From a virus (lineage: Duplodnaviria > Heunggongvirae > Uroviricota > Caudoviricetes): DNA of 21,450 nucleotides. The stretch lies in the IMG/VR virus record IMGVR_UViG_3300029214_000123. One strand, given 5' to 3'. Below the pieces are notes generated by a model. The model was not told the origin of the DNA and made no database searches. It worked only from the letters and a program-made list of their open reading frames with translations. This document shows positions 1,456 to 21,450 of the stretch, piece after piece. The stretch's first letter is position 1. The number at the start of each line of letters is the position of its first letter. Position numbers and translations under genes: made by a program.

Positions 1456-1478
1456 TGCTTTTTTAAAAGGAGAAATCT

Positions 1479-2250: not shown

Positions 2251-3601
2251 TCAATCTTTTTTATCGGGATCAGGCTTCTTTTTAGGTAACTTCGGGGGCT
2301 TAACTTGCTGATGACTTTGCGTTCGGCGCGTAAGCCAGGGATGGTCAGCTTTAGGTTTAACATAGTATTTTGAGCGTAAATCAATACGGGCATTATCCAC
2401 TCGTTCATGGACACTCTTTTCATCATCCAGTGGTATAGGCTCCGGGCCATCAACATACTTTTCCCAGCCCAGCGCTTTCCCGTCATACAGAACGTTAATT
2501 TCACCGTCAAAGTTCTCGCATACAGTAACAACCGAATGCCTAAGTCGATATCCCCGGCCCTCACTGCGTACCTGAAACGCACTGCTTTTGTACTGGAAAG
2601 TGAGATTTTTAGACAGAACGCGCTTCGCCTGTAGGCTGAAGATATAACCCAGTTCCTCTTCAGAATGGTGCACATCAAGATGAGCATTATCAGTAGTACG
2701 AGGCGACGTAGCGAACCGGTTGTTATAGGCTTCAATAAAGGTCGGCAACCATGCATTTGCTGTTTCAATATCACTGATATTCTGAAGCCGCATTTCTTTG
2801 ACCAGCCTGTCCTGTAGTGTCTGATTGGCGCGCTCTACCCGCCCTTTTGCCTGCGGGCTGTTGGCATGGATTGGCTCGATGCCCAGTGTCTTTATCGCAC
2901 GAGTGAACTGGGTCAGCTCACCTTCCCGCTCTGGGTTATTTACCCTGAATATACTGTGTCTATCAGAGTAGAGAGCGAGCGGTACGCCATGATCATTAAG
3001 GTAACCCCGGAGGGTTTCCATGTAAGCCCGGGTTGTTTCAGCAGGCACAAAACGCAACGCCATCAACGCACTGGTGGCATCATCAATGAAAACGATCAGT
3101 GTACATCTGGGGCCTCGATTTTCAAACCAGTCATGAGGTGAGCCATCAATCTGGATCAGTTCACCGTAAGATGGTCGTCGCATGCGGCGTTGATATATAC
3201 GGGCAATTTTACGACGGCGTTCACGCCATACCCCCCTCTTCTATCATCCACTTTCTGAGAGTTTCAACGGATAAAGATAAACCGTGTATCTCGCGCAATT
3301 TTTCGCACGCAAACGTAGGTCCAAAATCAGCGTAACGGCCTTTGAGGAGTAAAATTACTGTTGCTCTGAATTCAGTAGAAAAGGAATTATTAGGACGCTT
3401 TCCACGTCGGTGGGAAACCAGACCAGAAGGCCCTTCATTTCTATACCGTTGCNNNNNNNNNNNNNNNNNNNNNNNNNNNNNNNNNNNNNNNNNNNNNCGT
3501 GCCGCAGCTTGTTCCTGAGTAATATGTCGATTAATTGACTCCTGAATAATCTGAAGTCGGTGGAGTTCCTTATGACTCATCGTAACAGTTTCTTTGGTCA
3601 T
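2251..3601 (-). mobile_element. IS element transposase gene: N-terminal HTH plus DDE (rve-type) catalytic core, about 450 aa; disrupted by a 1-bp frameshift in a poly-G tract and by an N-run (pseudogene or sequencing error)
   Basis: ORFs 3221..3601 (HTH-like N-terminus) and 2251..3183 (D...D...E core: IDGSPHDWF, YSDRHSIF, GRVERANQTL) are offset by +1. They fuse into one reading frame if the C6 run at 3231-3236 (G6 on the coding strand) is shortened by one base. No A6G slippery heptamer. IS boundaries and inverted repeats were not resolved; family is uncertain (single-ORF IS481/ISNCY-like). Confidence 0.7.
3453..3497. other. Run of 45 N inside the transposase gene
   Basis: Literal n characters. 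Confidence 1.
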
Positions 3602-3935
3602 GAAAAATCCCCCAGAGAATTGTCTGGGGACATTTTAGAATGGTTCAAAGGGGACATTACAGCTTGGTGTTAACAATAGCCTGCTTCTCCTTGCCTTTCG
3701 GCACGTAAGAGGCTAACCTACATGTGTCTGGCATGAAATTGGCCTCAGATTAATGTTAAGCGTCTTGCAGGACGCGTAATGTTAACTGGGGCTTTTCTCT
3801 ACCTGCCGTTGGTGTTCGTGCCCGAGGCAGATAGCCTCAAGCACCCGCAGTCATTCTACTTAACTAAGATTTCCCCGCAAACCGTTTTTGTCCAGCACAG
3901 TAAATATCCAACTAAACCAATGGAGTTCGCTGTAT

Positions 3936-4154
3936 TTACCGCCAGTATTCAATGCACATGACCGCCATGAACACCCCTAAAAAAAGGGCATTTATATATC
4001 CAAATATTAATATCAAAACATCAACTTTTTCCATATACCTTGCTGTGAAGATGATGGGCATACATGATGCGAACAACCAGAACGCAACAAACAAAAACTG
4101 CAATGCGTTTTTCATTATTCCTCCTACAATCAATGTGCAATTACATTTAAACAC
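3936..4154 (-). CDS. Hypothetical small membrane protein (72 aa)
   Basis: ORF with two hydrophobic stretches (LQFLFVAFWLFASCMPIIF, LILIFGYINALFLGVFMAVM); AT-rich surroundings, no clear SD. Confidence 0.25.
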   Translation of the reverse strand: MFKCNCTLIVGGIMKNALQFLFVAFWLFASCMPIIFTARYMEKVDVLILIFGYINALFLGVFMAVMCIEYWR

Positions 4155-5269
4155 ACCTCAATTTGGCCGGACATATAAATATCTAAACCAGAAAAAATCA
4201 CTTACATAGCGTTACAAACTCTTTAGTCTAAAGGTTCATCGTAAAACATTCCCCATACTTATCAGTCCGTTCCGCGCCAGGTAGCTCATTGCCTTATCTG
4301 GCAACCTGTAATCAGGTTTCCGCTTTTTCAGTTGGCTGGTCGTTTAACCGACATAGTTAACCCATTAATCTAGTTGCCGGATGTTGGTGGATTTTCGCGT
4401 TTTAGTTGTTCATAAAAGTGCACAGCTTTAACCAATTCTTCTGATGTAACCGGGACTGGTGAGGCAGTGAATAAGGCCTGAATTTGATAGTTCGGCCTGT
4501 CGTTACAATCCTCTTTTTTCGGTACATATTTCCAGTCACCAGACCACTACTTCCCCTGAAAGTCCGTAACGCCTTTTTTTTCACGTAGCGATATCGCCAT
4601 GCCACTGTTTTTGCTTGCCCCGCCGTTTCATGCCCTTCCTGATAATTAACCTCGCTCATTCATCGCCCCACTCATCACAATATGCTTCGACCGGAGTTTT
4701 TCCCGCTTCATAGTCATCACGCTAGGATTCGACATCAGCAGCACTTCCACCGCGTAACTCACCATAGTCCATTAATAGTTCATCCCGCTCTTCAAAACTG
4801 ATGTTATATTTAGCTGAACAAAAATCAGCCACTTTGTTCTTCCTCATCGTCTTTTATTTCGTGGTATGAGTAATTGCAGTAGTTAAAGAAAATTTCTTAT
4901 GCTCCGTCATGAATTTCATCAGGTGTTGCGTCATCGTCCACTTCGAATACATCCTCAAAATCTCCACCAGCTATTCCCGTTTCAATAATAATTTTGAACT
5001 TTCGCATTTCACTACCGCCCTTTCGGGCGGCCTCCTGATGTTCTGAGGGTGCAGAAATCCATCCGGTTAAGGATTAAGTTTTATTTACAGAACTGAATTT
5101 AATTATTCAGATATACGTATCTGTAACCTTACGAATCTACTCACTGGATGCCTCTTTCATAAAAATAATCCAGTGGGTTTTATCGTTTTTTCCCTGTTCG
5201 TTGACAGATAACAGGCTTTCTATCTGTCAGTGCCAGAATCTGGCTTACCGGTATTTGCGTTTCATTCCA

Positions 5270-5626
5270 TTAAAAAATCAGAACGCCGTGCGGCCTCAAC
5301 ACCCGAAAAGCTTCTTTAAATCTCTGTCGCAAATCATCACGCCAGGCATCTTTATTCAGCCGTCCATATTTCTTTCCCATCCAGGCGTTATCACCAACAC
5401 GCTCAAGATGCGGAGGGTCTAATACAACCATCGAAAAAGATGCGTCTGCAAATGATAATGCACGAAAATCTGCGATAATGTCAGGGCTGATAATCAAGCG
5501 TCTCCCATTGCGTAATGTGTATCCTTCTTTTCTGATATCGCTAAATATCGCCCGTTCGTCAGACTTATCGAACCAGAACATGCGGCTGCCACAGCACATA
5601 TCAAGAATGGTTGCCGGTGCACTCAC
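5270..5626 (-). CDS. Prophage DNA methyltransferase-like protein (YfdM-like), possibly truncated
   Basis: 118-aa ORF with SAM-binding-like MCCGS motif and DPPH catalytic-like motif (VVLDPPHLE); short for a complete methyltransferase. Confidence 0.55.
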   Translation of the reverse strand: MSAPATILDMCCGSRMFWFDKSDERAIFSDIRKEGYTLRNGRRLIISPDIIADFRALSFADASFSMVVLDPPHLERVGDNAWMGKKYGRLNKDAWRDDLRQRFKEAFRVLRPHGVLIF

Positions 5627-6045
5627 TGCGCCACGTCCTGAAAATTACCCTGATAGAAAGCCAGTATGCGCTGCATAACTTCGCTCTTCCGGCACTCGCG
5701 ACAGATTATGTTTAGGCGACTGTCGTAGCGACGTATTTCTCCGTCAGGTGATGACCAGATAAGGTCCGGATCAACCACAGCAGGTTTCTTCACCTTTGCC
5801 CTCGAGAGTTTTTTGCGGGCGTTTTGCCAGTCCTTACGCGCCTGTTCAGAGGGGAATAACCCGTAGCCGGAGTTGTATACATCGCCACTGGCTACCAGCT
5901 CTCTGGCAAGAACGCTCATCAGATATCTAGTCGCACCTGTTTTAGCTTCCAGTTGCCGTAACGTCTCACGGCCGCTCTGGCGCACGAGTTCCACCACCTG
6001 CCATTTAATTTTTTCCCGCTCTTCTTGTGTAAAAACTTTTGCCAC
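5623..6045 (-). CDS. Hypothetical prophage protein (140 aa) in the leftward early/replication operon
   Basis: ORF co-oriented with and overlapping (ATGA-type) the downstream methyltransferase-like gene; basic C-terminus. Confidence 0.5.
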   Translation of the reverse strand: MAKVFTQEEREKIKWQVVELVRQSGRETLRQLEAKTGATRYLMSVLARELVASGDVYNSGYGLFPSEQARKDWQNARKKLSRAKVKKPAVVDPDLIWSSPDGEIRRYDSRLNIICRECRKSEVMQRILAFYQGNFQDVAQ

Positions 6046-6085
6046 AAGTCCCCCTTAAAATTACCTCATGACCTGAAATCAACAC

Positions 6086-7051
6086 TTATCCTCTGAAACC
6101 AGGCGGAATTTCTGTATCCGGTTCAGAAATATGATTAACACAACGCTGTACAGGTGAACGTCCCAGGCGGATGACCAGTTCGTCCCATTTTTCGCGGAGC
6201 TTTGACGGGCTCATGATGTTTTTTACCCAGAATGGATCTCGCTGAACCCGACCAAACATTTCGCAAATTTGTCTGTGGCTTCTGCCATCCAGCATCCGCA
6301 TTGTGCGCACGTCATTGGCCCAGGCAGTCCAGTTAGGCTCTTTTGGTCGCATGATCTCGCCATCATCACTGGCTGCCTGTTCGTAGAGACCCACGATCCG
6401 CCCCCAGATCCACTGCGCACACGCCAAATCCTCCCTGCTACCCCACTGGCGTTTTTTCGCACTAAACACAACCGCGTCGGAGTTCCGGGTTAAAAAATCC
6501 TGTTCAGTCGTCTGCGGGTCCGGTTGCGAAGCTTCCGGACGAAAAGTGTTTTTATTCTCTGTAGTAATCTCTGTTGTATTCTCTGTAAGATCATCAGGCC
6601 ATTTTGACCCGATGACATTGGGTCGTTTTGAATCAATGGAGCGTTTCATTTTGACCTCTTCCATCGTGTCATTTTGACCTGATGGAGCGGCGCATTTTGA
6701 ACCGATGGATTCGCTCAATTTGCCACCATCTAAAAGCTCGCTCCCATAGTTGATCGTGTAGAAATTGGTCATATCGCGCTTTGATTTATTGAGCTTTTCA
6801 CAACGCAAAAGCCCCAGCGTTTTCAGACTTGCAAACGCGCGCTTTAACGTTGACTCTGACCAGAATGGGAACTGTTCCAGCCATTGTTCCGTTGTGTTAT
6901 AAATCCAGCGAACACCATCACATTCCATGCCGGAGTTGGTATCTCTCAACCAGTAGTGCAGTTGTTGCAAAACAATGGCTTCGTTTAAGCCAATTTTCAT
7001 TGCCAGCTGCGTGTTTATAACCAGTGGGCGTTCAGCAAAAAGAAGGCTCAT
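6086..7051 (-). CDS. Putative phage replication initiation / replisome-organizer protein (lambda O-like position)
   Basis: Long ORF (track 6086..7105); internal ATG at 7051-7049 (MSLLFAERPL...) is the more likely start. Sits downstream of the cro-like dicC in the leftward operon where lambdoid replication genes are found. Functional call is by position and general resemblance only. Confidence 0.5.
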   Translation of the reverse strand: MSLLFAERPLVINTQLAMKIGLNEAIVLQQLHYWLRDTNSGMECDGVRWIYNTTEQWLEQFPFWSESTLKRAFASLKTLGLLRCEKLNKSKRDMTNFYTINYGSELLDGGKLSESIGSKCAAPSGQNDTMEEVKMKRSIDSKRPNVIGSKWPDDLTENTTEITTENKNTFRPEASQPDPQTTEQDFLTRNSDAVVFSAKKRQWGSREDLACAQWIWGRIVGLYEQAASDDGEIMRPKEPNWTAWANDVRTMRMLDGRSHRQICEMFGRVQRDPFWVKNIMSPSKLREKWDELVIRLGRSPVQRCVNHISEPDTEIPPGFRG

Positions 7052-7553
7052 AATTCCATCCAGCTTTTTGTTGGTATTGCTGTCGATACGCAAGCTTGAA
7101 AGCAATTGCTTTTTCTATAAGTTCGTCAGTTTCACGATCCACTACGGCAGGATCAGCAAAAAGCAGTCCGGACTCCACCACATCGCCATATTCTTTGTTT
7201 AACCCGGCGATCATGCACGTGATGCTTTTTCCGTCAGTAATTTCACGATACAACCTGAAATCACTAATCCGGATAGCCTCCATAATCGCAGGCACTAGCG
7301 CCGTGAACTTTTCACGCTTATCCCTGGTGTCGATAGCCTTCCAGCGTTCGAATATCTTCACTCGATTAACACCAAGCGCTCGCTGATCAACCGCGCCACC
7401 TTCATCTGTGACACGCTGAACATCGATGTTCGGGCGCTCTTTCAAAGCCCAGAATGCTTCAGTGATTAATATCGTCGCCTGCTCCTGTGTCATTCCTGGT
7501 CGACATATCCAGGCATCCAGAGCCTCACGAGCCTGTTCAGGAGTGATTTTCAT
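7032..7553 (-). CDS. Hypothetical prophage protein (173 aa) immediately downstream of dicC
   Basis: ORF overlaps the dicC 3' end by 17 nt and the next gene by about 20 nt (compact operon organisation); function unknown. Confidence 0.45.
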   Translation of the reverse strand: MKITPEQAREALDAWICRPGMTQEQATILITEAFWALKERPNIDVQRVTDEGGAVDQRALGVNRVKIFERWKAIDTRDKREKFTALVPAIMEAIRISDFRLYREITDGKSITCMIAGLNKEYGDVVESGLLFADPAVVDRETDELIEKAIAFKLAYRQQYQQKAGWNYEPSFC

Positions 7554-7764
7554 TGTTCAACCGCCCCGCCCGCTTCGTCTTACGATATTCATCATAAACT
7601 TTGGGATCATACTGAAGCTCCCCGCCAGATGCCTCCTGTAGACGCATCGCGCGACCTTCAGGAACCAGTATCCCCCAAGCAGCAACACTTGCCAGCCTCA
7701 CTCCTGCGGCATTGGCAAGCTTTGTTTTGCTGCCAAAAAAAGTAATTGCGTCAACTTTAAGCAT
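7537..7764 (-). CDS. dicC: DicC, Cro-like repressor of division inhibition
   Basis: ORF ...FGSKTKLANAAGVRLASVAAWGILVPEGRAMRLQEASGGELQYDPKVYDEYRKTKRAGRLNNENHS matches DicC as I recall it; the track ORF begins at a TTG (7767), the first ATG is at 7764; divergent from dicA. Confidence 0.85.
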   Translation of the reverse strand: MLKVDAITFFGSKTKLANAAGVRLASVAAWGILVPEGRAMRLQEASGGELQYDPKVYDEYRKTKRAGRLNNENHS

Positions 7765-7778
7765 CAAATCCCCCTCTT

Positions 7779-7794
7779 GTTAGAGTTTTCTAAC
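7779..7794. promoter_or_regulatory. Operator-like palindrome in the dicC-dicA divergent promoter region
   Basis: gTTAGAgttttTCTAAc inverted repeat between the dicC and dicA start codons. Confidence 0.55.
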
Positions 7795-7844
7795 ATTATT
7801 GTGCGCGGGATACCTAAGTCAAGAAAAATTAGAATTACCTAACT

Positions 7845-8252
7845 ATGGATACAAGAACCCTGGGCCAGCGAGTTCTGGCGCGACGAAAAGAATTACGCTT
7901 AACACAACGAGAAGCCGCGCGCCTCGCTGGAGTTGCTCACGTCACAATTTCACAATGGGAAAGAGACGAAACCCAGCCAGTCGGAAAACGATTGTTTGCT
8001 TTAGCGGATGCTCTGAAGTGCTCACCTACATGGCTAATGTTTGGTGACGAAGACAAGGCACCAGTGCCTGCACAAGAACTTCATGTGGAAACAGAGCTAA
8101 CTCCCAACCACAAAGAATTGATCGAATTATTCGATGCTCTTCCATCTTCCGAGCAGGAAGCCTTGCTGTCTGAAATGCGCGCAAGAGTAGAAAACTTCAA
8201 CAAACTCTTCGAAGAAATGCTTAAAGCGCGTAAAAATAAATCAATAAAATAA
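7845..8252 (+). CDS. dicA: DicA, XRE-family HTH repressor (CI-like)
   Basis: 135-aa ORF with HTH (LTQREAARLAGVAHVTISQWERDETQP) and C-terminus ...EMRARVENFNKLFEEMLKARKN matching DicA as I recall it. Confidence 0.9.
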   Translation: MDTRTLGQRVLARRKELRLTQREAARLAGVAHVTISQWERDETQPVGKRLFALADALKCSPTWLMFGDEDKAPVPAQELHVETELTPNHKELIELFDALPSSEQEALLSEMRARVENFNKLFEEMLKARKNKSIK

Positions 8253-8287
8253 CATTCTTTTCAAGTGATTAGTTGCGCCCACCCTTT

Positions 8288-8307
8288 TTGTTAGATCAAT
8301 CTAACAA
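8288..8307. promoter_or_regulatory. Second DicA-type operator palindrome upstream of ydfA
   Basis: ttGTTAGATcaATCTAACaa: same TTAGA/TCTAA half-sites as the 7779-7794 palindrome, placed at the start of the rightward ydfABC-dicF operon. Confidence 0.55.
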
Positions 8308-8420
8308 AAAACACTTGCCTCTCATGTTAGGTTATTCTAAATTATTTTCCATCAAGACACCGCACGGTGTTCTCAGCAAACAGTTCCGCTACCCCGGCGT
8401 TAAGGGGAAATGAGGTCAGC

Positions 8421-8576
8421 ATGGATACTATCGATCTTGGCAACAACGAATCTCTGGTGTACGGCGTGTTTCCAAACCAGGACGGCACGTTCACCGCAAT
8501 GACGTATACCAAAAGCAAAACGTTTAAAACCGAATCTGGAGCGCGTCGCTGGCTGGAAAGAAATTCAGGTGGGTGA
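8421..8576 (+). CDS. ydfA: YdfA (small prophage protein, 51 aa)
   Basis: MDTIDLGNNESLVYGVFPNQDGTFTAMTYTKSKTFKTESGARRWLERNSGG from the ATG at 8421 (track ORF starts upstream at a GTG); SD-like aggggaaatgagg upstream. Confidence 0.8.
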   Translation: MDTIDLGNNESLVYGVFPNQDGTFTAMTYTKSKTFKTESGARRWLERNSGG

Positions 8577-8577
8577 T

Positions 8578-8706
8578 ATGGATTTCGACACAATCATGGA
8601 AAAGGCTTACGAAGAATACTTCGAAGGCCTTGCCGAAGGCGAAGAAGCTCTCAGCTTCAGCGAATTTAAACAGGCGCTTGCCAGTTCGGCAAAATCTAAC
8701 GGCTGA
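8578..8706 (+). CDS. ydfB: YdfB (42 aa)
   Basis: Hand translation MDFDTIMEKAYEEYFEGLAEGEEALSFSEFKQALASSAKSNG; starts 2 nt after the ydfA stop; below the ORF track threshold. Confidence 0.75.
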   Translation: MDFDTIMEKAYEEYFEGLAEGEEALSFSEFKQALASSAKSNG

Positions 8707-8735
8707 TAAGCGAAACAGCACCGCAAGGAATCAGT

Positions 8736-8954
8736 ATGCAGAAACGAGAACCCGTTATCATCGCGCCAGACTATACCGATGATGAACTTTATGAGTGGAT
8801 GCACCAGAAAATTAATGCAGCGCAGGATCTGAAATGGGCTAATGAAGCCAGGGCTAAGCAGGCTGAAAATCTGTTCTCTCTGGAGCAGGATATCACCAAT
8901 CTGGAAAAAGCAGCGGCATTAAGCATTGCCAGAATGATTACATACCCGCGTTAA
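8736..8954 (+). CDS. ydfC: YdfC (72 aa)
   Basis: ORF MQKREPVIIAPDYTDDELYEWMHQKINAAQ... in the conserved ydfABC order. Confidence 0.8.
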   Translation: MQKREPVIIAPDYTDDELYEWMHQKINAAQDLKWANEARAKQAENLFSLEQDITNLEKAAALSIARMITYPR

Positions 8955-9294
8955 TAGCTAACCAACGAAGCTAAGGTTGGTAATTAAGGAGTTCTCCACG
9001 GGTGAGGTGGAGTGCGTGCGCCGGACACGGGTGAGCATCCGGCACTGACAGTTTACTGAAAGGATATTTCCCTGAAAAGTCAGACCATAACGCGAAAGCG
9101 CACGGCGAGGTAGCTGGTTCATAGATAGCCTGTCGTTAAATTTTCGTCGACCGTGCGCTTCCGGTTGTGGCAACCCGCGAAATGGCGCGGCGGTAAGTAT
9201 GGCGGGGTTATTCCTTCCCCGTTGAGGACACCGGGTTGTCAGGTTGACCATACGCTTAAGTGACAACCCCGCTGCAACGCCCTCTGTTATCAAT

Positions 9295-9352
9295 TTTCTG
9301 GTGACGTTTGGCGGTATCAGTTTTACTCCGTGACTGCTCTGCCGCCCTTTTT
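9295..9352 (+). ncRNA. dicF: DicF small RNA (antisense inhibitor of ftsZ translation) with intrinsic terminator
   Basis: tttctggtgacgtttggcggtatcagttttactccgtgactgctctgccgccc followed by ttttt matches DicF as I recall it; GC hairpin plus T-run at the 3' end. Confidence 0.85.
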
Positions 9353-9376
9353 AAAGTGAATTTTGTGATGCGGTGA

Positions 9377-9649
9377 ATGCGGCTAAGCGCACGCGGAACA
9401 GTTAAAACCAAAAACAGTGTTATGGGTGGATTCTCTGTATCCGAAGAGCAGTTAATTGCGCTGAAAGGAATAAAAAAAGGTACGTTAAAAAAGGCCCGGG
9501 AAAAATCGTTTATGGAAGGAAGGGAATATAAGCATGTCGCTCATGACGGTATGCCATGGGATAACAGTCCATGCTTTTACAACCTGGAAGAAATTGATCG
9601 CTGGATTGAGCGCCAGGCATCAGCAAGACCAAGACGTCATCTTACTTGA
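9377..9649 (+). CDS. Putative excisionase (lambda Xis-like); start codon uncertain
   Basis: ORF immediately upstream of int; segment EGREYKHVAHDGMPWD resembles the lambda Xis DGREYLFHESAVKVD region. No clear SD at any candidate start (9377, 9422, 9512). K-12 has dicB at this position, and no DicB-like protein is present here. Confidence 0.45.
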   Translation: MRLSARGTVKTKNSVMGGFSVSEEQLIALKGIKKGTLKKAREKSFMEGREYKHVAHDGMPWDNSPCFYNLEEIDRWIERQASARPRRHLT

Positions 9650-9683
9650 CTAAAAGCCACACTAACTAATGAGAGAAGTTGAA

Positions 9684-10964
9684 ATGAAATATCCGACAGG
9701 CGTGGAAAACCATGGAGGGAAATTACGTATCTGGTTTGTTTATAAAGGCGTAAGAGTCAGGGAAAACCTGGGGGTTCCTGACACAGCAAAAAACAGGCGC
9801 GTTGCAGGTGAGCTACGCGCCTCTGTTTGTTACGCAATAAAAACTGGTGTTTTCGACTATGCAAAACAGTTTCCCTCCTCACGCAATCTGGAAAAATTTG
9901 GTGAGACTCGACAAGATTTAACCATAAAAGAACTGGCTGAAAAATTTCTGGCACTGAAAGAAACTGAAGTCGCAAAAACATCACTCAACACATACCGTGC
10001 CGTCATCAAAAATATCCTGAGCATAATCGGTGAAAAAAATCTTGCCTCATCGATTAATAAAGAAAAATTACTGGAGGTTCGTAAAGAGCTACTGACTGGA
10101 TACCAGATCCCCAAAAGTAACTATATTGTTACACAACCAGGGAGATCGGCTGTAACTGTAAATAATTACATGACAAATCTTAACGCCGTGTTCCAGTTTG
10201 GTGTTGATAACGGTTACCTGGCAGATAACCCGTTTAAGGGGATCTCGCCATTAAAGGAATCAAGAACCATTCCGGATCCTCTTTCGCGGGAGGAATTCAT
10301 CCGTCTTATCGATGCGTGCAGAAATCAGCAAGCCAAAAATTTATGGTGTGTTTCTGTTTATACTGGCGTTCGCCCTGGTGAGCTGTGTGCACTTGGATGG
10401 GAGGACATAGATCTGAAAAATGGAACAATGATGATCAGGAGAAATTTAGCAAAAGACCGTTTCACGGTACCAAAAACACAGGCGGGAACCAATCGGGTCA
10501 TTCATCTTATTAAGCCAGCAATCGACGCTCTCCGGAGTCAGATGACATTAACGAGACTGAGCAAAGAGCATATCATTGATGTTCACCTCAGAGAGTATGG
10601 CAGAACAGAAAAACATAAATGCACCTTTGTTTTTCAACCTGAAGTGTCAGCGAGAGTAAAAAATTATGGTGACCATTTTACCGTTGACTCAATAAGGCAG
10701 ATGTGGGACGCAGCGATAAAACGTGCCGGACTCCGCCATCGAAAATCATATCAGTCGAGACATACTTATGCCTGCTGGTCGCTGACAGCTGGTGCTAATC
10801 CGGCATTTATAGCAAACCAGATGGGCCATGCAGATGCGCAAATGGTATTTCAGGTATACGGAAAATGGATGTCTGAAAACAATAATGCACAGGTAGCTTT
10901 GTTAAATACACAGTTAAGCGAGTTTGCCCCAACCATGCCCCATAACGAAGCAATGAAAAATTAA
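9684..10964 (+). CDS. Phage integrase (tyrosine recombinase), apparently intact
   Basis: 426-aa reading from the ATG at 9684 (track ORF 9669) with a C-terminal catalytic region carrying conserved R...HxxR...Y residues (...RHTYACW..., ...VYGKWM); last prophage gene before the chromosomal rspB. Confidence 0.85.
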   Translation: MKYPTGVENHGGKLRIWFVYKGVRVRENLGVPDTAKNRRVAGELRASVCYAIKTGVFDYAKQFPSSRNLEKFGETRQDLTIKELAEKFLALKETEVAKTSLNTYRAVIKNILSIIGEKNLASSINKEKLLEVRKELLTGYQIPKSNYIVTQPGRSAVTVNNYMTNLNAVFQFGVDNGYLADNPFKGISPLKESRTIPDPLSREEFIRLIDACRNQQAKNLWCVSVYTGVRPGELCALGWEDIDLKNGTMMIRRNLAKDRFTVPKTQAGTNRVIHLIKPAIDALRSQMTLTRLSKEHIIDVHLREYGRTEKHKCTFVFQPEVSARVKNYGDHFTVDSIRQMWDAAIKRAGLRHRKSYQSRHTYACWSLTAGANPAFIANQMGHADAQMVFQVYGKWMSENNNAQVALLNTQLSEFAPTMPHNEAMKN

Positions 10965-11151
10965 TTTAATATTTATCAAATAGTTGACACGTATGACTCT
11001 TGAAATCCATAAATTCAAGCGCAGTGCCCAGCCATCCCGATACTGCTGCTTTCACCAAATCCTTAGTGCTTCTTTCGTGTTTTTCTATTGTCATAATGGT
11101 TATCTCTAAAAAAGAGGTAAGATGCGTACTACTTACTCGCCGTTATTGGTA

Positions 11152-16324: not shown

Positions 16325-17734
16325 ATGTCCAAAAATGACCGAATGGTGGGCATCAGCCGCAGAACACTCGTTAAATCAACCGCGATAGGTTCTCTGGCGC
16401 TGGCTGCAGGCGGTTTTTCTTTACCGTTCACCCTGCGCAGTGCAGCGGCAGCGGTACAACAGGCCAGCGAAAAAGTGATCTGGGGTGCCTGTTCCGTCAA
16501 CTGTGGTAGCCGCTGTGCACTTCGTCTACATGTTAAAGATAATGAAGTCACCTGGGTGGAAACTGACAACACCGGCAGCGACGAGTATGGCAATCATCAA
16601 GTACGCGCCTGTTTGCGTGGTCGATCCATCCGCCGGCGTATTAATCATCCCGATCGCTTGAATTACCCAATGAAACGCGTGGGTACACGCGGTGAAGGCA
16701 AATTCGAACGGATTAGCTGGGATGAAGCCCTGGATACTATCGCCAGTAGCCTGAAAAAAACCGTCGAACAATATGGCAATGAGGCTGTATATATTCAGTA
16801 CTCTTCGGGGATTGTTGGCGGCAATATGACCCGCTCTTCGCCATCAGCCTCGGCGGTCAAACGCCTGATGAACTGCTACGGCGGTTCACTCAATCAGTAT
16901 GGCTCCTACAGCACCGCGCAAATTTCCTGTGCCATGCCCTACACCTACGGCAGTAATGATGGCAACAGCACCACGGATATTGAAAACAGCAAGCTGGTCG
17001 TGATGTTTGGTAACAACCCGGCAGAAACCCGCATGAGCGGCGGTGGCATCACTTATCTTCTTGAAAAAGCGCGCGAGAAATCGAACGCCAAAATGATTGT
17101 TATCGATCCGCGATATACCGATACGGCTGCCGGTCGTGAAGACGAATGGCTCCCTATTCGCCCGGGCACCGATGCCGCGCTGGTTGCGGGTATTGCCTGG
17201 GTATTGATTAACGAAAATCTCGTTGATCAACCTTTTCTCGATAAATACTGCGTCGGCTATGACGAAAAAACCTTACCCGCAGATGCACCCAAAAATGGTC
17301 ACTATAAAGCCTATATTCTTGGTGAAGGTGACGATAAAACAGCGAAAACGCCGCAGTGGGCTTCGCAAATTACCGGTATCCCGGAGGACCGTATCATCAA
17401 ACTGGCGCGTGAAATTGGCACAGCAAAACCCGCTTATATCTGCCAGGGCTGGGGGCCGCAACGCCAGGCAAACGGCGAACTGACTGCACGCGCTATTGCT
17501 ATGTTACCTATTTTGACGGGCAATGTCGGCATCAGCGGCGGAAATAGTGGCGCGCGTGAATCGACCTATACCATTACCATAGAACGCCTGCCGGTGCTGG
17601 ATAATCCGGTCAAAACGTCAATCTCCTGCTTCAGCTGGACAGATGCTATCGATCATGGTCCGCAAATGACGGCAATCCGCGACGGCGTCCGCGGCAAAGA
17701 TAAACTGGATGTGCCCATTAAGTTCATCTGGAAC
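16325..17734 (+). pseudogene. ynfE: ynfE 5' fragment (Tat-exported DMSO/selenate reductase-family molybdoenzyme catalytic subunit), cut after codon ~470 by foreign DNA
   Basis: Tat signal (SRRTLVKSTAIGSLALAAG), 4Fe-4S Cys motif (CSVNCGSRCALR), YnfE/DmsA-like sequence up to ...DVPIKFIWN. The remaining ORF tail (FKDLKRTLSRPEVLH, stop at 17782) does not continue as YnfE/DmsA, and the full protein should be roughly 800 aa. Confidence 0.85.
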
Positions 17735-17790
17735 TTCAAGGACTTGAAGCGGACCCTTAGTAGGCCTGAGGTCCTGCATTGAGTCAAGGA

Positions 17791-17824
17791 CTTTGTGTCA
17801 GGCTTTGTGTCAGCCTTGTGTCAT
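17791..17824. repeat. Three tandem copies of an ~11-bp repeat (ctttgtgtcag variants) in the foreign-segment terminal region
   Basis: ctttgtgtcagg / ctttgtgtcagc / cttgtgtcat in direct tandem; followed by a tagacgg ... tagacgg direct repeat (17825-17844). Confidence 0.6.
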
Positions 17825-17976
17825 TAGACGGGATGTCTAGACGGCTGGTCAGGACCCCCGGTGGCCTCGGTCTGGACTTGAGGCGGGGCTATGGGGGGAA
17901 GTCTGCTGGCTTAATGTATTAGATGGTCATTCACATTTTTCTGTCAGAAACCATCGGTCCCACTGTGAGTCCAAAC

Positions 17977-18132
17977 CTAAGGACCTAGAAGTCCACCCAC
18001 AGCCTTAGACAGAGTGTCGAACACATCCACACCGAGTCGACCAGAGAGGACCATATAGAGACCCACAGAGAGGAACACGAGTTTATAGACCAGAGTCAGG
18101 AGGGACCTTAGGTCTGCGGAAGTCATAGACAT
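17977..18132 (-). CDS. Small (51 aa) membrane protein, holin-like or phage small membrane protein; missed by the ORF track (<60 aa)
   Basis: Hand translation MSMTSADLRSLLTLVYKLVFLSVGLYMVLSGRLGVDVFDTLSKAVGGLLGP; strong SD GAAGGAGG 5 nt upstream of the ATG at 18132; one predicted TM helix; same strand as the neighbouring phage-like genes. Confidence 0.55.
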   Translation of the reverse strand: MSMTSADLRSLLTLVYKLVFLSVGLYMVLSGRLGVDVFDTLSKAVGGLLGP

Positions 18133-18276
18133 TGGGTCCTCCTTCGCCTGTATACTACCATACCAGTAATAAGGCCCAGACCATTGGTCCAGACCATAGT
18201 TAGTTAATCACAGTGATAGCCCACCACCTGAAGTCCTGCTGATATTCAGTCCAGACTTACCTCTTACCCATTGGTC

Positions 18277-19266
18277 TTACGCTTCGGTCTTGGTGAACTT
18301 CAGGCGTTTGACTACAGGCAGGACGGCAGTAGCTGAGCCAGTGCCCATCTTGACGGTCGTAGCAGCTTCAGCGACAACGAACACTTTACCGAGGATTTCC
18401 AGAGAGTGAGACTGAGAGTCACCATCACGGGACAGGACCACCGTAATGTTTTCGCCATCGTGGCGGAAGCAACCGAAGCTCAGAGCCGTAAAACGCTTAG
18501 CCATCATGAACACGCCACGGTCTTCACCGTTGTAATACGCAATATCAGTCCCCAGCATATCGACGATAGCGTCTTCACCACCGAAGCCCTGCTTAGCAGC
18601 CAGACGGGAGAGAGCCTTGAGGTGTGACTCATGGGCGATGATACCGTAATCAGTAACCTCAGAACCGAAAGAAGATTCGGTGTTGTCATACAGAGCGTCC
18701 ATGATAGTGTCTGCCTTAGCGGTCAGGCTGCCAGTCAGGACCGGAAGCTCTACGGTCTTCAACAGTTTGGAGGACTCCAGAACGTCAACCATGCGAGCGT
18801 TGATGGTACGGACCACATTCTCACAGATGTTCATAGCGTCCTGCTGAAGTGTGCCCTGAGTGAATCCGGTGGATGACTTGGCGTCCCAGAGCTTGGTCTG
18901 CTCAGAGATGAGAATAGCCTGCTCGATTGGTTCGACCACGATTTCTTGTCCAGACGGAACGGTCACGACTTCAGGTCGCTTACCACCACGGACAGGAACG
19001 ACCACAGAGCGATCAGCCAGAGTGTGAGCAATGATTGGAGTAGGCAGGCTATTGCGGGTCGGCAGGACTTCTACAGGGAACGGGATGTTATCTTGAGCGT
19101 CTTTAAGTACACCGTTCAGCATAGCCTTAACAGTCTTAGCTAACTGGAGGGCATAGACCTGAGGGTCGGCGTTAGTCGGAAGGCCCTCATTAACCTGAAG
19201 GTTGTCGTTGTCGGTGATATGAACAGGCTCAATGCCAAACTGGAAAGCGTTTTTAGTCATATTCAT
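18277..19266 (-). CDS. Phage-like abundant structural protein, tentatively a major capsid protein (329 aa)
   Basis: Long ORF with strongly biased high-expression codon usage (CTG, GGT, CGT, GCT, ATC, GAC). Translation initiation region CAAGGAGATTAATTATA-ATG resembles the T7 gene 10 RBS (AAGGAGATATACAT-ATG). 9-bp hairpin immediately upstream. Few Cys, Ala/Val/Thr/Gly-rich. The capsid assignment is inference, not a recognised homolog. Confidence 0.45.
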   Translation of the reverse strand: MNMTKNAFQFGIEPVHITDNDNLQVNEGLPTNADPQVYALQLAKTVKAMLNGVLKDAQDNIPFPVEVLPTRNSLPTPIIAHTLADRSVVVPVRGGKRPEVVTVPSGQEIVVEPIEQAILISEQTKLWDAKSSTGFTQGTLQQDAMNICENVVRTINARMVDVLESSKLLKTVELPVLTGSLTAKADTIMDALYDNTESSFGSEVTDYGIIAHESHLKALSRLAAKQGFGGEDAIVDMLGTDIAYYNGEDRGVFMMAKRFTALSFGCFRHDGENITVVLSRDGDSQSHSLEILGKVFVVAEAATTVKMGTGSATAVLPVVKRLKFTKTEA

Positions 19267-19298
19267 TATAATTAATCTCCTTGAGTCAAATACTTGAA

Positions 19299-19321
19299 GT
19301 CCCTAACAGGCAGTCAGGGAC
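19299..19321 (-). promoter_or_regulatory. Stable RNA hairpin in the leader of the capsid-like gene (candidate RNase III / mRNA-stability element)
   Basis: On the minus strand GUCCCUGAC-UGCCU-GUUAGGGAC: 9-bp stem with one G-U pair; no U-tract after it, so it is unlikely to be an intrinsic terminator. Confidence 0.4.
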
Positions 19322-19349
19322 CGTGTGTTCTCAGATGAGGGACGCTTGC

Positions 19350-19841
19350 TTACAGGCTGTCCATCCAGTTACCGCCTGACTCAATGTCAGCGACGATAGC
19401 GGCACGGGAGCGACCAGCGGAATGGGTAGCACTGCGGAGGTTCTCACCATAGGTCCGGCGTTCAGCTTTGACCTGTTCGCGGCGCTGTAGCTCTTTCTGC
19501 CACTCTGCATCAGTCATGTTCTCTTCACGCATACGCTCAGCCTGAATGCGCTGCTCTTTAGCAATACGCTCAGCTTCGGCTCGCTTGTTCTGCTGGCGGC
19601 GACCATAGGCGGTCATCAGGTCATTACTGAAGAAGTTGCCAATGGTCACGCCAGCTTCAGCCAGAGCTTCCAGTAACTCCATCGCCTCGCGGCTGGTGGA
19701 CGGTAAGCCTGACAGGTAGCCCGGAATCAGGGTCTTAATCGCCAGAGACAGCGGATAGGACTGACCGTCCAGACTCACAGTATTTTCATAGGGATTGATG
19801 TCGGTGACTGATAGTTTCCAGTCGTTGTTGTTGAATAACAT
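19350..19841 (-). CDS. Phage-like protein (163 aa) with a charged coiled-coil C-terminal half, scaffolding-like
   Basis: ORF with SD AGGAGTACTACCTT-ATG; C-terminal half RRQQNKRAEAERIAKEQRIQAERMREENMTDAEWQKELQRREQVKAERR is Arg/Glu/Gln-rich helical; immediately precedes the capsid-like gene. The scaffold role is inference. Confidence 0.4.
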   Translation of the reverse strand: MLFNNNDWKLSVTDINPYENTVSLDGQSYPLSLAIKTLIPGYLSGLPSTSREAMELLEALAEAGVTIGNFFSNDLMTAYGRRQQNKRAEAERIAKEQRIQAERMREENMTDAEWQKELQRREQVKAERRTYGENLRSATHSAGRSRAAIVADIESGGNWMDSL

Positions 19842-20055
19842 AAGGTAGTACTCCTATTGAGAAGGTGAGAACTATCGGTATCGCAGACACAGTTATGCCT
19901 ACGGGTCTCCCCGCATCGGTCATTCTCAAAAGGTTTTAAAATTAGGTATTAAGTAGGTGAGCTGCTAACGGTTAGGCGCTAGCTTGCTAGCTGACGGCAG
20001 TTTCATAGCGACCAGTTGCGCTATCAGCTCGTCTCGGGATTGGTGCTGGCGGGTC

Positions 20056-20157
20056 TCATCTTNNNNNNNNNNGACCAAGCTCTCTGAGGAGGACTTCAGT
20101 CCGGTAGCCACGGTAACGGAGAGTCATGCGACCCTCAGGTGTGCGCGGGTCAATCAT
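20056..20157 (-). CDS. Possible small basic protein (~33 aa) translationally coupled to the upstream 237-aa gene; spans an N-run
   Basis: ATG at 20157-20155 is preceded by GGAGGG (8 nt upstream) lying in the last codons of the upstream gene; translation MIDPRTPEGRMTLRYRGYRTEVLLRELG... The length depends on the true size of the 10-N gap. Confidence 0.2.
   Translation of the reverse strand: MIDPRTPEGRMTLRYRGYRTEVLLRELGXXXXR
20063..20072. other. Run of 10 N inside the foreign segment
   Basis: Literal n characters. Confidence 1.
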
Positions 20158-20158
20158 C

Positions 20159-20872
20159 TTAGAGTCCCTCCAGCTTGCCGGATTGGGCCTGCTTCAGGAG
20201 GTGCTCTTGCTTCTGCTGGTCGGTGCCAGTGAAGGCAATAAGGATGCCTCGCATCTTGTCAACCATCTCAGGCTTACCGAAGACCTCCAGTCCCTTAGCA
20301 TTGAACCGGAAGTTATAACCACCTGCTGAGAACTTCTGGTCTGACGGCTTAATGATACGAAAGCAGTCGGAATACTTCGGATTTACAGACCACTCGTTAC
20401 TGATTGGATTCTTACGAAAGAGACCACGATGCTGAAGAAGTGCGGTCATTAGCTTCTGAGCGGGTAGACCATAGGTTTTGCAGTAGTCGCCCCAAGTCAC
20501 GCCTCGACGGTTAGCGGACTGAATTGATGCTCGCTTCTTCTGGTCTTCCAGTAACTGCTTGTCCTTCTCAATTCGTCGGATGTATTCAAGGACTTTGCGA
20601 CGCACAGCTTTAGACTCACGCATACCGACTAGTAACAATTGGTCTCCGGTCAGCGTGATTGATTCCATCTGACGACCACCGCCTGTAGGTGTAATCAGAA
20701 CGGTCGCAAAAGTTTTGCAATCGTCCAGCTCATCGCGGACACGGGCTAAGAATTGGTCATTACGGACCGGAGCCTCGCCAGCTTCTGAACGAGCAGGATT
20801 GATAACAGTCGTCAGAAACTCATAGGAAGGCATAGAGAATTCATTGTTAAAGATGACTACTTGTTGAGACAT
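20159..20872 (-). CDS. Phage-like protein of unknown function (237 aa); possibly regulatory/antirepressor-like (weak)
   Basis: Long ORF with SD AAAAGGAGTACAACGAT-ATG, the same AGGAGTAC-type initiation region as the 163-aa gene; codon usage like the neighbouring genes. The segment ESITLTGDQLLLVGMRESKAVRRKVLEYI vaguely recalls Rha/antirepressor-type proteins, which I cannot verify. Confidence 0.5.
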   Translation of the reverse strand: MSQQVVIFNNEFSMPSYEFLTTVINPARSEAGEAPVRNDQFLARVRDELDDCKTFATVLITPTGGGRQMESITLTGDQLLLVGMRESKAVRRKVLEYIRRIEKDKQLLEDQKKRASIQSANRRGVTWGDYCKTYGLPAQKLMTALLQHRGLFRKNPISNEWSVNPKYSDCFRIIKPSDQKFSAGGYNFRFNAKGLEVFGKPEMVDKMRGILIAFTGTDQQKQEHLLKQAQSGKLEGL

Positions 20873-21450
20873 ATCGTTGTACTCCTTTTGTTATGTCTCC
20901 TGAAGTCACACCCTGAAAGCCTACTCAAGCCCCCAACGATAGGGAGACTCACAGGCAACAGGAGACATACAGAAAGACTTGAGGATTGATGAGGTCGTGT
21001 GAAGACCAGAGATGACCATAGCGGCTAATAAAAGGAAATTTTCCTCTTTTGAGGACTGCTCAGTTTTGAGCGCGTTAAGTTCTTCGACCATAGAGACGAA
21101 GGTTGCAGGCCGCATGTCAGGACGAGCTGTAAGGACCCCAGATGGTGAGCGGTGATAGACTTAAGCCAATGTAGTGAGTAGACGAGCTACTAACTGAGAT
21201 GACTGAAGAACGCTAACGAGCTGGAGGTCGATACACGAGGTCTGACAGGGGCGGTCTTCCTACCAGTGATAGTTAAGTCTCTACACTGGTCATACATACC
21301 CAACCTCAAGCAACGACCCAATGTATACAGGGTCCCGATGCTTTGAGCTGGAGACTGACGGAGCTATCGTCGACCCCATGGTTGAGGAAGACACATAGAA
21401 GGAATGAGGTCTGACTTAAGTCTGGACTATAGGTCTTATATTAATCTTCA

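What the first reader, a model, noticed from the sequence alone, without database searches (positions are those of the whole stretch)
20873..21450. 578 bp with no convincing ORF upstream of the 237-aa gene
This stretch has the same flavour of short reiterated GAC/GTC/AGAC-rich motifs as the 17735-17976 terminus. The only listed ORF (64 aa, 20921..21115) lacks a Shine-Dalgarno. The region probably holds promoters, processing sites or very small genes. An ATAGGGAGA motif (20939-20947) sits on the plus strand, but the upstream part of a T7-type promoter is missing and the genes are on the other strand.
Basis: seen in the sequence. Interest (0 to 1): 0.45.

Follow-up and report, generated by a model that had tools for sequence, protein, structure and literature searches.

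The report
Leader region of a T7-phage satellite
The gene-free stretch is the control region and folded RNA leader of a small mobile island in E. coli that appears to parasitise T7-like phages by carrying their RNA-polymerase promoters, a kind of element I could not find described.

Summary
Window 20873-21450 has no conserved ORF and is 2.7-fold enriched in GTC/GAC. It is the downstream 578 nt of a 790-nt non-coding region inside a ~6.6-kb integrative element inserted in ynfE. All genes lie on the minus strand: integrase, HNH, non-coding region, Ant-like gene, 163-aa gene, HK97-fold capsid protein. In relatives this non-coding region carries arrays of T7-group phage RNA-polymerase promoters on the gene strand. 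Exact CACTATAGG occurs 105 times against 6.5 expected, 99 of 100 placed ones being upstream of the operon. Classes match Kayfunavirus phages, and one element carries exact T7 and K11 consensus promoters. Two folded RNA domains follow. M2 (21108-21256) starts 81-87 nt after a promoter. M4 (20889-20971) abuts the Shine-Dalgarno. Both are supported by compensatory changes, and neither matches Rfam or the helper-type phages tested. In this copy the M2-proximal promoter (21253-21281) has four core substitutions; two one-mismatch promoters lie beyond the window. No σ70-like promoter was found. Best reading: a helper-polymerase-driven leader, perhaps with RNase III-type processing sites. No paper describing it was found.

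The parts
20873..21450 (-). Downstream 578 nt of a 790-nt non-coding control region and 5' leader of the operon Ant-like gene, 163-aa gene, capsid gene. The remaining 212 nt lie beyond the window end.
   Evidence: No conserved ORF. No σ70-like promoter.
20889..20971 (-). M4, a folded leader RNA. Helix P1 is 20959-20971 with 20889-20902, P2 is 20949-20955 with 20912-20918, P3 is 20943-20948 with 20929-20934. The 3' arm of P1 ends 1 nt before the AAGGAG Shine-Dalgarno.
   Evidence: Found in about 40 loci. 98.3% of cells are paired, 5 pairs changed on both sides, and the covariation score is 0.263 against at most 0.059 for slid controls. G.U pairs occur only on this strand.
20939..20947 (+). It is the complement of UCUCCCUAU, the 5' arm and loop of M4 hairpin P3. 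It is not a promoter.
20882..20887 (-). Shine-Dalgarno AAGGAG of the first operon gene (ATG at 20872-20870).
   Evidence: Invariant in alignment A3; located.
21027..21055 (-). A/T-rich palindromic hairpin UCCUCAAAAGAGGAAAAUUUCCUUUUAUU. It is weakly terminator-like and is confined to this lineage.
21051..21095 (-). M3, a 45-nt block conserved in about 25 loci, lying between M2 and M4. Function unknown.
21108..21256 (-). M2, a ~150-nt rod-like RNA hairpin. Closing helices are GACCGC..UGUCAG with CUGACA..GCGGCC. It has an invariant unpaired GUCUAUCAC in an asymmetric internal loop.
   Evidence: 28 pairs, 98.2% paired, 8 pairs changed on both sides (0 of 500 shuffles reach this), covariation 0.217 against at most 0.068 for slid controls. 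MFE -50.4 kcal/mol, z -3.76. Short variants replace one helix with GUGUGU/ACACAC.
21171..21194 (-). Optional 24-nt hairpin cassette GUUAGUAGCUCGUCUACUCACUAC inserted at the apex of M2.
   Evidence: Present or absent among otherwise identical M2 copies. It recurs at other intergenic sites.
21253..21281 (-). Degenerate T7-group promoter GAGACTTAACTATCACTGGTAGGAAGACC. It resembles the promoter that follows the terminase gene in Kayfunavirus vB_EcoP_F (GGACTTAACTATCACTATAGGGAAGACC), but has 4 substitutions at -3 to +1.
   Evidence: It scores below 8 bits with a matrix built from 42 distinct family promoters.
21284..21450 (-). Upstream leader segment shared with only a few elements. It contains the near-palindrome GACCTATAGTCCAGACTTAAGTCAGACC and ends inside an A/T-rich inverted-repeat region.
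20159..20872 (-). First operon gene, 237 aa, an Ant-like anti-repressor. This slot is variable among relatives (KilA-N, Rha and others).
   Evidence: phrog_10324, E 1.8e-31.
19946..19969 (-). Second, diverged copy of the 24-nt hairpin cassette, upstream of the 163-aa gene.
19350..19841 (-). 163-aa core gene of the element. Function unknown; a scaffold role is only a guess from its position.
18277..19266 (-). 329-aa core gene encoding an HK97-fold major capsid protein.
   Evidence: AlphaFold2 mean pLDDT 82. Foldseek against PDB gives E about 1e-9 to phi29, T5, Kp9 capsids and encapsulins.
17725..17735 (+). att core CATCTGGAACT at the ynfE/element junction. The element starts at about 17736.
   Evidence: The same repeat bounds the element in L001.

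Best explanation
The stretch is the non-coding control region and 5' leader of the capsid operon of a ~6.6-kb integrative, satellite-like element inserted in ynfE.

Proposed mechanism:
- Without a phage the operon is silent, because no host-type promoter is present.
- When a T7-like phage (Kayfunavirus type) infects, its single-subunit RNA polymerase starts at T7-group promoters on the gene strand of this region.
- It then transcribes through two conserved folded RNA domains, M2 and then M4, into the Ant-like, 163-aa and capsid genes.
- M2 and M4 are long irregular hairpins with asymmetric internal loops, and M4 ends at the ribosome-binding site. I infer they are processing or stability sites of the kind RNase III cuts behind T7 promoters, possibly coupling processing to translation.

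In this particular copy the promoter next to M2 carries four core substitutions and is probably dead. Transcription would then have to come from two one-mismatch promoters, 125 nt and about 1 kb beyond the window end.

Shown: the absence of genes, the promoter arrays in relatives, their strand and fixed spacing to M2, the RNA structures, and the capsid fold.

Inferred: helper dependence, RNase III cleavage, and any role in replication.
For: - The window is E. coli chromosome and the element splits ynfE, bounded by the repeat CATCTGGAACT.
- L020 extends the window and gives the full 790-nt region.
- Exact CACTATAGG occurs 105 times in 0.85 Mb of related loci against 6.5 expected. Of the 100 that could be placed, 99 are on the gene strand within 3.5 kb upstream of the 163-aa gene.
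- Promoter classes match real phages. CTAAACTATCACTATAGGGAGA is the promoter set of Kayfunavirus vB_EcoP_F. ATACCCTCACTATAGGGA matches Cronobacter phage GW1 and its relatives. Element L004 carries the exact T7 and K11 consensus promoters.
- In 27 of 40 loci with M2, a promoter start lies 81-87 nt upstream of M2.
- M2 and M4 structures are supported by compensatory changes and strand-specific G.U pairs.
- A non-homologous alternative leader in other elements has the same architecture at the same place.
- No σ70-like promoter was found in 1.8 kb spanning the region: 0 against 1.3 expected.
- The 329-aa core protein has an HK97 capsid fold.
- The HNH cargo resembles T7 gp3.8 at 37% identity.
- GTC/GAC composition resembles that of T7-like phages.
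Against: - Inside the window there is no intact promoter, only a site with four core mismatches. The lineage's other two promoters each carry a core mismatch (CACTGTAGG, CAGTATAGG). No enterobacterial phage using such cores was found. This copy may therefore be transcriptionally impaired.
- There is no expression, excision or transduction data.
- The RNase III role rests on shape and position only. Neither M2 nor M4 has a counterpart in T7, vB_EcoP_F or GW1-type genomes.
- M4 alone is not unusually stable (z -1.38).
- Sequence diversity is limited to about 4-6 clades, so covariation counts partly reflect shared ancestry.
Confidence: 0.68

Rival explanations
1. The region acts mainly at the DNA level, as a T7-type replication origin and/or packaging signal. 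In T7 the primary origin is a pair of phage promoters followed by an A/T-rich stretch, and packaging needs promoter-driven transcription at the concatemer junction. The satellite would copy this to be replicated and packaged by helper enzymes. This does not exclude the leader reading.
For: - The element has no replication gene.
- Tandem promoters are followed by an A/T-rich segment with inverted repeats: ATCTTCTTATGAAGAT at the window end, and ATTGTGnnnnCACAAT in L002 and L010.
- The window's promoter remnant resembles the phage promoter that sits after the terminase gene.
- GTC, the T7 primase recognition triplet (established knowledge), is enriched 2.5-fold across the element.
- A motif like the T7 concatemer-junction pause signal, TCTCCCTATCTGTAT, occurs once per element. 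L004 copies 20 nt of the T7 terminal-repeat end and a T7 left-end repeat.
Against: - The A/T-rich inverted-repeat core lies almost entirely outside the window.
- M2 and M4 show G.U-tolerant, strand-specific covariation and fixed spacing downstream of promoters. This fits RNA better than duplex DNA sites.
- No direct evidence of replication or packaging exists. Element-sized metagenome contigs end in host flanks and are not circular.
Confidence: 0.3
2. M2 is the precursor of a stable trans-acting small RNA that is cut from the leader. It would regulate the satellite or interfere with the helper, as the P4 CI and P1/P7 C4 RNAs are processed from leaders upstream of regulatory genes such as ant.
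For: - M2 is a self-contained, strongly folded rod (z -3.76).
- It has an invariant unpaired 9-mer, GUCUAUCAC, which could be a pairing or protein-binding site.
- It lies upstream of an Ant-like gene, as C4 does (the C4 and CI biology is from established knowledge).
Against: - No match to the Rfam C4 family or to any other family, even at E up to 10.
- No complementary target sequences were identified.
- No terminator or processing signals have been defined.
Confidence: 0.15
3. In this copy the region is decaying non-functional DNA. The element is a fixed remnant whose promoters have mutated.
For: All three promoter-like sites of the window lineage are off-consensus. The roughly 85-nt segment normally found between promoter and M2 is missing.
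Against: - All element genes that can be read are intact in this lineage: the three operon genes in the window, and HNH and integrase in L001.
- M2, M3 and M4 are fully conserved.
- The same arrangement is kept at 93-99% identity in several independent genomes and metagenomes.
Confidence: 0.2
4. It is an ordinary host-polymerase promoter/operator region for the Ant-like gene, or it encodes small proteins.
For: - It is a long intergenic region upstream of a regulator-type gene.
- There is a weak CTGACT-N17-TCTTAT match on the + strand near 21415-21445 (read by eye).
- A 64-aa ORF is present.
Against: - The consensus scan finds no σ70-like site on either strand.
- The 64-aa ORF and the shorter ones are broken by indels and replaced by unrelated sequence in relatives.
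Confidence: 0.07

Closest known systems
Promoters of T7-group phage RNA polymerases (T7, T3, K11, K1F/Kayfunavirus), including T7 phiOR/phiOL and the phi1.1A/B primary origin
   Same: The family's non-coding regions carry 23-bp sites with the CACTATAGG core, in gene orientation. They are often in tandem pairs about 27 nt apart, and are identical or nearly identical to promoters of sequenced phages. The window site shares 25 of 29 positions with a vB_EcoP_F promoter, including the transcribed GAAGACC.
   Different: They sit in a bacterial chromosomal island, not in a phage. Single elements combine different polymerase specificities, which no single phage does. The window's own site has the TATAG core replaced by TGGTA.
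RNase III processing sites of T7 mRNAs (R0.3, R1.1, R1.3, R6.5 and others)
   Same: Irregular hairpins of 25 or more base pairs with an asymmetric internal loop, placed between a phage promoter and the next gene. M4 ends just before the ribosome-binding site.
   Different: There is no sequence or covariance-model similarity to T7 or Kayfunavirus genomes. M2 is about 150 nt, longer than T7 sites. Cleavage is untested.
PICMI, the ~6-kb minimalist satellites of virulent Vibrio phages (PMC10803314)
   Same: Very small integrase-bearing islands that depend on a virulent helper. They are of similar size and have variable cargo.
   Different: PICMIs encode replication proteins and no capsid gene, integrate next to fis, and use a ~48-kb helper. 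Promoters of the helper's RNA polymerase are not described in the passages of that paper I searched. This element has a capsid gene, no replication gene, and T7-type promoters.
Capsid-forming PICIs (cf-PICI)
   Same: Satellites that encode their own HK97-fold capsid protein.
   Different: cf-PICIs are about 11-15 kb and carry a full head and packaging module: portal, protease, terminase and connectors. This element has only a capsid protein and one or two small partners.
P4 CI RNA and P1/P7 C4 RNA (leader-derived immunity RNAs)
   Same: A structured RNA in the leader upstream of regulatory genes, including ant in P1, of a satellite or phage.
   Different: No Rfam C4 match, and no identified target repeats. 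Transcription here is apparently by a phage polymerase rather than a host promoter.

Membership tests
T7-group phage RNA-polymerase promoter (window site 21253-21281) | Conserved core -7 to +1 CACTATAG followed by G(G) | tested here: not met
   The window has CACTGGTAGG, with four substitutions at -3 to +1 relative to CACTATAGGG. It scores below 8 bits with the family matrix.
T7-group phage RNA-polymerase promoter (window site 21253-21281) | Upstream specificity region (-17 to -8) matching a known phage class | tested here: met
   GACTTAACTATCAC is identical to vB_EcoP_F promoters at positions 6833 and 9726.
T7-group phage RNA-polymerase promoter (homologous region in relatives) | Full 23-bp consensus, in gene orientation, more frequent than chance | tested here: met
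   105 exact cores against 6.5 expected, with 99 of 100 on the gene strand upstream of the operon. Exact T7 and K11 consensus sites in L004. Classes shared with sequenced phages.
T7-group phage RNA-polymerase promoter | Transcription initiation by the cognate polymerase | not testable with these tools
   Needs in vitro transcription or 5'-end mapping during infection.
T7-type RNase III processing site (M2, M4) | Irregular hairpin of at least about 20 bp with an internal loop, between promoter and gene | tested here: met
   M4 has 25 pairs and M2 has 28, both covariation-supported. M2 lies 81-87 nt after a promoter start.
T7-type RNase III processing site (M2, M4) | Specific cleavage by RNase III | not testable with these tools
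   No experimental data are available here.
T7-type RNase III processing site (M2, M4) | Homology to phage sites | tested here: not met
   Covariance models R1 and R2 find nothing in T7, vB_EcoP_F or GW1-like genomes.
Any Rfam family (including C4/CI antisense RNA) | Covariance-model score at or above the gathering threshold | tested here: not met
   Only sok, elsewhere in L001, reaches threshold. The best sub-threshold hits in the region are chance-level miRNA and snoRNA models.
Protein-coding gene (64-aa ORF 20921..21115) | Conserved reading frame and start codon in relatives | tested here: not met
   The N-terminal two-thirds is replaced by unrelated sequence, and there are frame-shifting indels.
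σ70 promoter region | -35/-10 hexamers with 16-18 nt spacing | tested here: not met
   0 sites against 1.3 expected in L020 5200-7000.
Phage satellite (general) | Small integrase-bearing element with att repeats, lacking a full virion and replication gene set | tested here: met
   About 6.6 kb, tyrosine integrase, 11-bp direct repeats. The only structural genes are a capsid protein and small partners.
Phage satellite (general) | Helper-dependent induction, packaging and transfer | not testable with these tools
   Indirect evidence only: helper-type promoters and T7-like junction motifs.
PICI / cf-PICI / P4-like / PLE / PICMI | Family-specific core genes (alpA plus pri-rep; full head module; Sid/Psu/alpha; PLE RepA; PICMI Prim-Pol next to fis) | tested here: not met
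   None of these were detected by Pfam or PHROGs in the element. The PICMI features are taken from PMC10803314.

The most novel reading that the evidence does not exclude
The region is the helper-sensing switch of an undescribed family of capsid-encoding mini-satellites of virulent T7-like phages in Enterobacteriaceae.
- The elements stay silent under the host polymerase.
- They carry arrays of promoters for several different phage RNA-polymerase specificities (Kayfunavirus classes, T7, K11), so that any of several helpers switches on a capsid operon.
- Expression passes through two new structured leader RNAs, M2 and M4.
- The same promoter/A+T-rich arrangement and T7-like junction motifs would let the helper's replication and packaging machinery act on the satellite.
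Probability: 0.5. Interest if true: 0.88.

Novelty: new variant of a known kind. Interest (0 to 1): 0.76.

Why it matters
T7 and its relatives are among the best-studied phages, and I know of no described satellite for them. If these islands, parts of whose control region occur in 387 of 5,426 complete E. coli genomes, are switched on by the infecting phage's own RNA polymerase, that would be a new and very direct way for a mobile element to sense a virulent helper.

It would also explain why the islands need no host promoter or replication gene. It would give two new RNA motifs to test, and it would bear on the use of T7-like phages for therapy, through satellite interference and gene transfer.

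The multi-specificity promoter arrays are directly testable with existing polymerases and phages.

Tried and rejected
- Rfam at gathering and at permissive thresholds found nothing relevant.
- The σ70 promoter scan found none. The two terminator-like hits are at chance level.
- blastn of the region and of the element against 50,697 phage records found no extended similarity. Similarity to phages is confined to promoters and short motifs.
- The 64-aa ORF was rejected as a gene.
- Many metagenome contigs of 6.2-6.9 kb suggested free circular copies. They end in ynfE or tRNA flanks and have no terminal overlap, so they are integrated copies cut out by assembly.
- The first AlphaFold run with 11 close homologues gave pLDDT 37 and was unusable. 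It was repeated with 38 diverse sequences.
- I looked for phages that use the window lineage's variant cores with 14-mer scans of viral contigs. Hits were single and at chance level. The few contigs with repeated CAGTATAGG are marine roseophage-like and irrelevant.
- Covariance models of M4 and M2 against T7, vB_EcoP_F and GW1-like genomes gave no hits.
- The resemblance of the + strand near 21415-21445 to the T7 A1 promoter was considered. It fails the promoter scan and the sequence is a near-palindrome, so I did not pursue it.
- Six literature searches found no description of a T7-like-phage satellite. Elements in ynfE are listed only as integrative elements that inactivate the gene (PMC7192596).

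Full report
**Context.** The window is E. coli chromosome. Positions 1-11017 are a Rac/Qin-type lambdoid prophage, followed by rspAB-ynfABCD. The ynfE gene (16325..17782) is cut short by an insertion. In the closest complete genome (NZ_AP022095, locus L001, about 95% identical) the insertion is 6.64 kb and is bounded by the direct repeat CATCTGGAACT (window copy at 17725-17735). All its genes lie on the window's minus strand. In order of transcription they are:
- a 528-aa tyrosine integrase;
- an HNH endonuclease;
- about 790 nt without genes;
- a 237-aa Ant-like protein, then a short ORF;
- a 163-aa protein and a 329-aa protein;
- about 500-700 nt of non-coding DNA, ending at att.

The window stops inside the 790-nt gap. 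A metagenome contig (L020) that is 99.85% identical to the window over 10,450 nt supplies the missing 212 nt. The coordinate conversion is window x = 27804 - L020 x.

**The observation.** Only one ORF of 60 aa or more overlaps 20873-21450. Its translation is conserved in relatives only over the last ~20 codons, and there the changes follow RNA pairing. The rest is replaced by unrelated sequence, and 1-nt indels are common. GTC+GAC density is 6.06 per 100 nt against 2.2 in the chromosome, and 0 of 500 dinucleotide shuffles reach the observed count. However, the whole element has 5.44 per 100 nt and a T7-like phage has 4.21, so this is composition rather than a local repeat array. ATAGGGAGA is at 20939-20947.

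**A family of elements.** Parts of the non-coding region occur in 387 of 5,426 complete E. coli genomes. Using the 329-aa protein as a handle I collected about 75 loci from E. coli, Shigella, Citrobacter, Leclercia, Enterobacter and gut or food metagenomes. The loci share the same order of parts. There are two integrase types (30% identical) with two target sites, ynfE and a tRNA-Gly gene. The cargo gene next to the integrase varies (HNH, DUF4145 and others), as do the regulator genes (Ant, KilA-N, Rha). With a deeper alignment the 329-aa protein models confidently (pLDDT 82) as an HK97-fold capsid protein. Elements in ynfE have been catalogued before only as integrative elements that inactivate the gene (PMC7192596).

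**What the non-coding region is in the family.** Read on the gene strand, the region in relatives contains unmistakable T7-group promoters.
- The exact 9-mer CACTATAGG occurs 105 times in 0.85 Mb of loci, against 6.5 expected. Of the 100 that can be placed, 99 lie on the gene strand within 3.5 kb upstream of the 163-aa gene.
- The commonest class, CTAAACTATCACTATAGGGAGA, is the promoter set of ~39-40-kb phages identified as Kayfunavirus (vB_EcoP_F and relatives).
- A second class, ATACCCTCACTATAGGGA, is that of Cronobacter phage GW1, Dev2 and Citrobacter SH4-type phages.
- The two classes often sit in tandem about 27 nt apart.
- Element L004 carries the exact T7 consensus TAATACGACTCACTATAGGGAGA and the exact K11 consensus.

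No single phage uses several specificities, so these are not relics of one prophage. The consensus scan finds no σ70-like promoter in the region.

**What lies inside the window.** Block-wise comparison splits the region into modules.

*M4 (window 20889-20971, minus strand).* M4 is present in about 40 loci, whatever gene follows. It folds into three helices, P1, P2 and P3. 98.3% of cells are paired and five pairs changed on both sides. The covariation score is 0.263 against at most 0.059 when partners are slid. Many G.U pairs would be A.C on the other strand. P1's 3' arm ends 1 nt before the AAGGAG ribosome-binding site. Elements that lack M4 have an unrelated leader with the same layout: a 12-bp basal stem, upper hairpins, a 7-9-nt unpaired 3' segment, then the ribosome-binding site.

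*M2 (window 21108-21256, minus strand).* M2 is a ~150-nt rod-like hairpin. It has 28 consensus pairs, 98.2% paired, and eight pairs changed on both sides (0 of 500 shuffles reach this). Covariation is 0.217 against at most 0.068 for slid controls. The single sequence folds at -50.4 kcal/mol, z -3.76. Short variants replace one helix by GUGUGU/ACACAC and keep an invariant unpaired GUCUAUCAC. In 27 of 40 loci a promoter start lies 81-87 nt upstream of M2, so M2 is part of the transcribed leader.

*Other pieces.* A 24-nt hairpin cassette (21171-21194) is optionally inserted at the M2 apex and recurs at other intergenic sites, including 19946-19969. Between M2 and M4 lie a conserved 45-nt block (M3) and an A/T-rich palindromic hairpin.

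**The promoter in this copy.** At 21253-21281 the window has GAGACTTAACTATCACTGGTAGGAAGACC. The vB_EcoP_F promoter that follows its terminase gene reads GGACTTAACTATCACTATAGGGAAGACC. The upstream recognition part and the transcribed part match, but ATAG at -3 to +1 has become GGTA. The usual ~85-nt spacer before M2 is also missing. The lineage's two other promoter-like sites each carry one core mismatch and lie beyond the window: GCTAAATTATCAGTATAGGGAAA at L020 6205 and ACTAAACTATCACTGTAGGGACT at L020 5283. I found no enterobacterial phage that uses such cores. This copy may therefore be weakly inducible or decaying, although the genes that can be read and M2, M3 and M4 are intact.

**Mechanism.** The best-supported reading is that this is a helper-polymerase-driven control region and leader. 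It would be silent with the host polymerase and switched on by an infecting T7-like phage, with the transcript passing through M2 and M4 into the capsid operon. In T7, RNase III sites are irregular hairpins placed just after promoters (established knowledge). M2 and M4 have that form and position, so processing, stabilisation and perhaps unmasking of the ribosome-binding site is my inference. Covariance models find no counterpart in the phages tested, and cleavage is untested.

A second, compatible role is a T7-type origin or packaging signal:
- the element has no replication gene;
- promoters are followed by an A/T-rich inverted-repeat segment at the window end;
- GTC, the T7 primase triplet, is enriched;
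- each element has one TCTCCCTATCTGTAT resembling the T7 concatemer-junction pause signal;
- L004 copies 20 nt of the T7 terminal-repeat end and a T7 left-end repeat.

**Known relatives and novelty.** No Rfam family matches. The element lacks the defining genes of PICI, cf-PICI, P4-like, PLE and PICMI satellites. Six full-text searches found no report of a satellite of T7-like phages or of chromosomal islands with T7-type promoter arrays. The library is incomplete, so prior description cannot be excluded. I class it as a new variant of a known kind: a phage satellite, phage promoters and leader hairpins in a new combination, with two new RNA motifs.

**Verdict.** The stretch is not ordinary intergenic DNA. 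It is the window's view of what looks like the helper-sensing region of an undescribed T7-like-phage satellite, although this particular copy has off-consensus promoters.

Noticed in passing
L004 (NZ_CP086342) about 6500-7100 and 8819, minus strand: An element of the same family at tRNA-Gly carries the exact T7 consensus promoter, two exact K11-type promoters and a fourth class. It also has a 20-nt exact copy of the end of the T7 terminal repeat (CTCTGTGTCCCTATCTGTTA) and the T7 left-end repeat ACCAGACCTAAAGA.
   Followed up: partly
L020 3729 and L001 26753 (beyond the window, near att and the integrase 5' end): TCTCCCTATCTGTAT resembles the T7 concatemer-junction (class II) pause signal. It occurs once per element on the gene strand in both integrase types, which are only 30% identical. 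This suggests a cis-acting signal overlapping the integrase ORF.
   Followed up: partly
window 21432-21450, continuing in L020 6280-6353: An A/T-rich segment with reiterated GACT(C)TAAGT motifs and an inverted repeat ATCTTC-TTAT-GAAGAT. Other elements have ATTGTG-nnnn-CACAAT at the same place. It could be an operator or origin-like feature.
   Followed up: partly
window 17736-21450 (whole element): GTC/GAC, GGTC/GACC and AGAC/GTCT are 2.5- to 4-fold denser than in the flanking chromosome, in coding and non-coding parts alike. The density exceeds even that of a T7-like phage. GTC is the T7 primase recognition triplet.
   Followed up: partly
L001 24340-25074 (gene next to the integrase, beyond the window): The cargo HNH endonuclease is 37% identical to T7 gene 3.8 (E 5e-19). 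The same slot holds DUF4145 or other genes in relatives, which looks like a variable cargo or defence hotspot.
   Followed up: partly
window 21171-21194, 19946-19969; L043; L013: A 24-nt hairpin cassette, GUUAGUAGC-loop-CUACUCAC, appears at several different intergenic positions in different elements, as if it were mobile. It is absent from T7 and vB_EcoP_F. Function unknown.
   Followed up: partly
window 20064-20073: A run of 10 N (an assembly gap or mask) lies between the Ant-like gene and the 163-aa gene, within the short ORF that relatives have there.
   Followed up: no
window 18261-18290 versus L001 20790-20936: Relative to L001 the window lacks about 147 nt just downstream of the capsid gene. 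In L001 this region appears to contain an unannotated small Gly/Pro-rich ORF.
   Followed up: no
window 1-11017: A Rac/Qin-type lambdoid prophage segment (exonuclease, integrase, replication O, cII, dicB region), 98.6% identical to phage PhiR42_1 over half the window.
   Followed up: no
window 16325-17782: ynfE (selenate/DMSO-type reductase subunit) is split by the element. Such insertions were listed earlier as candidate 'regulated gene integrity' cases (PMC7192596).
   Followed up: partly
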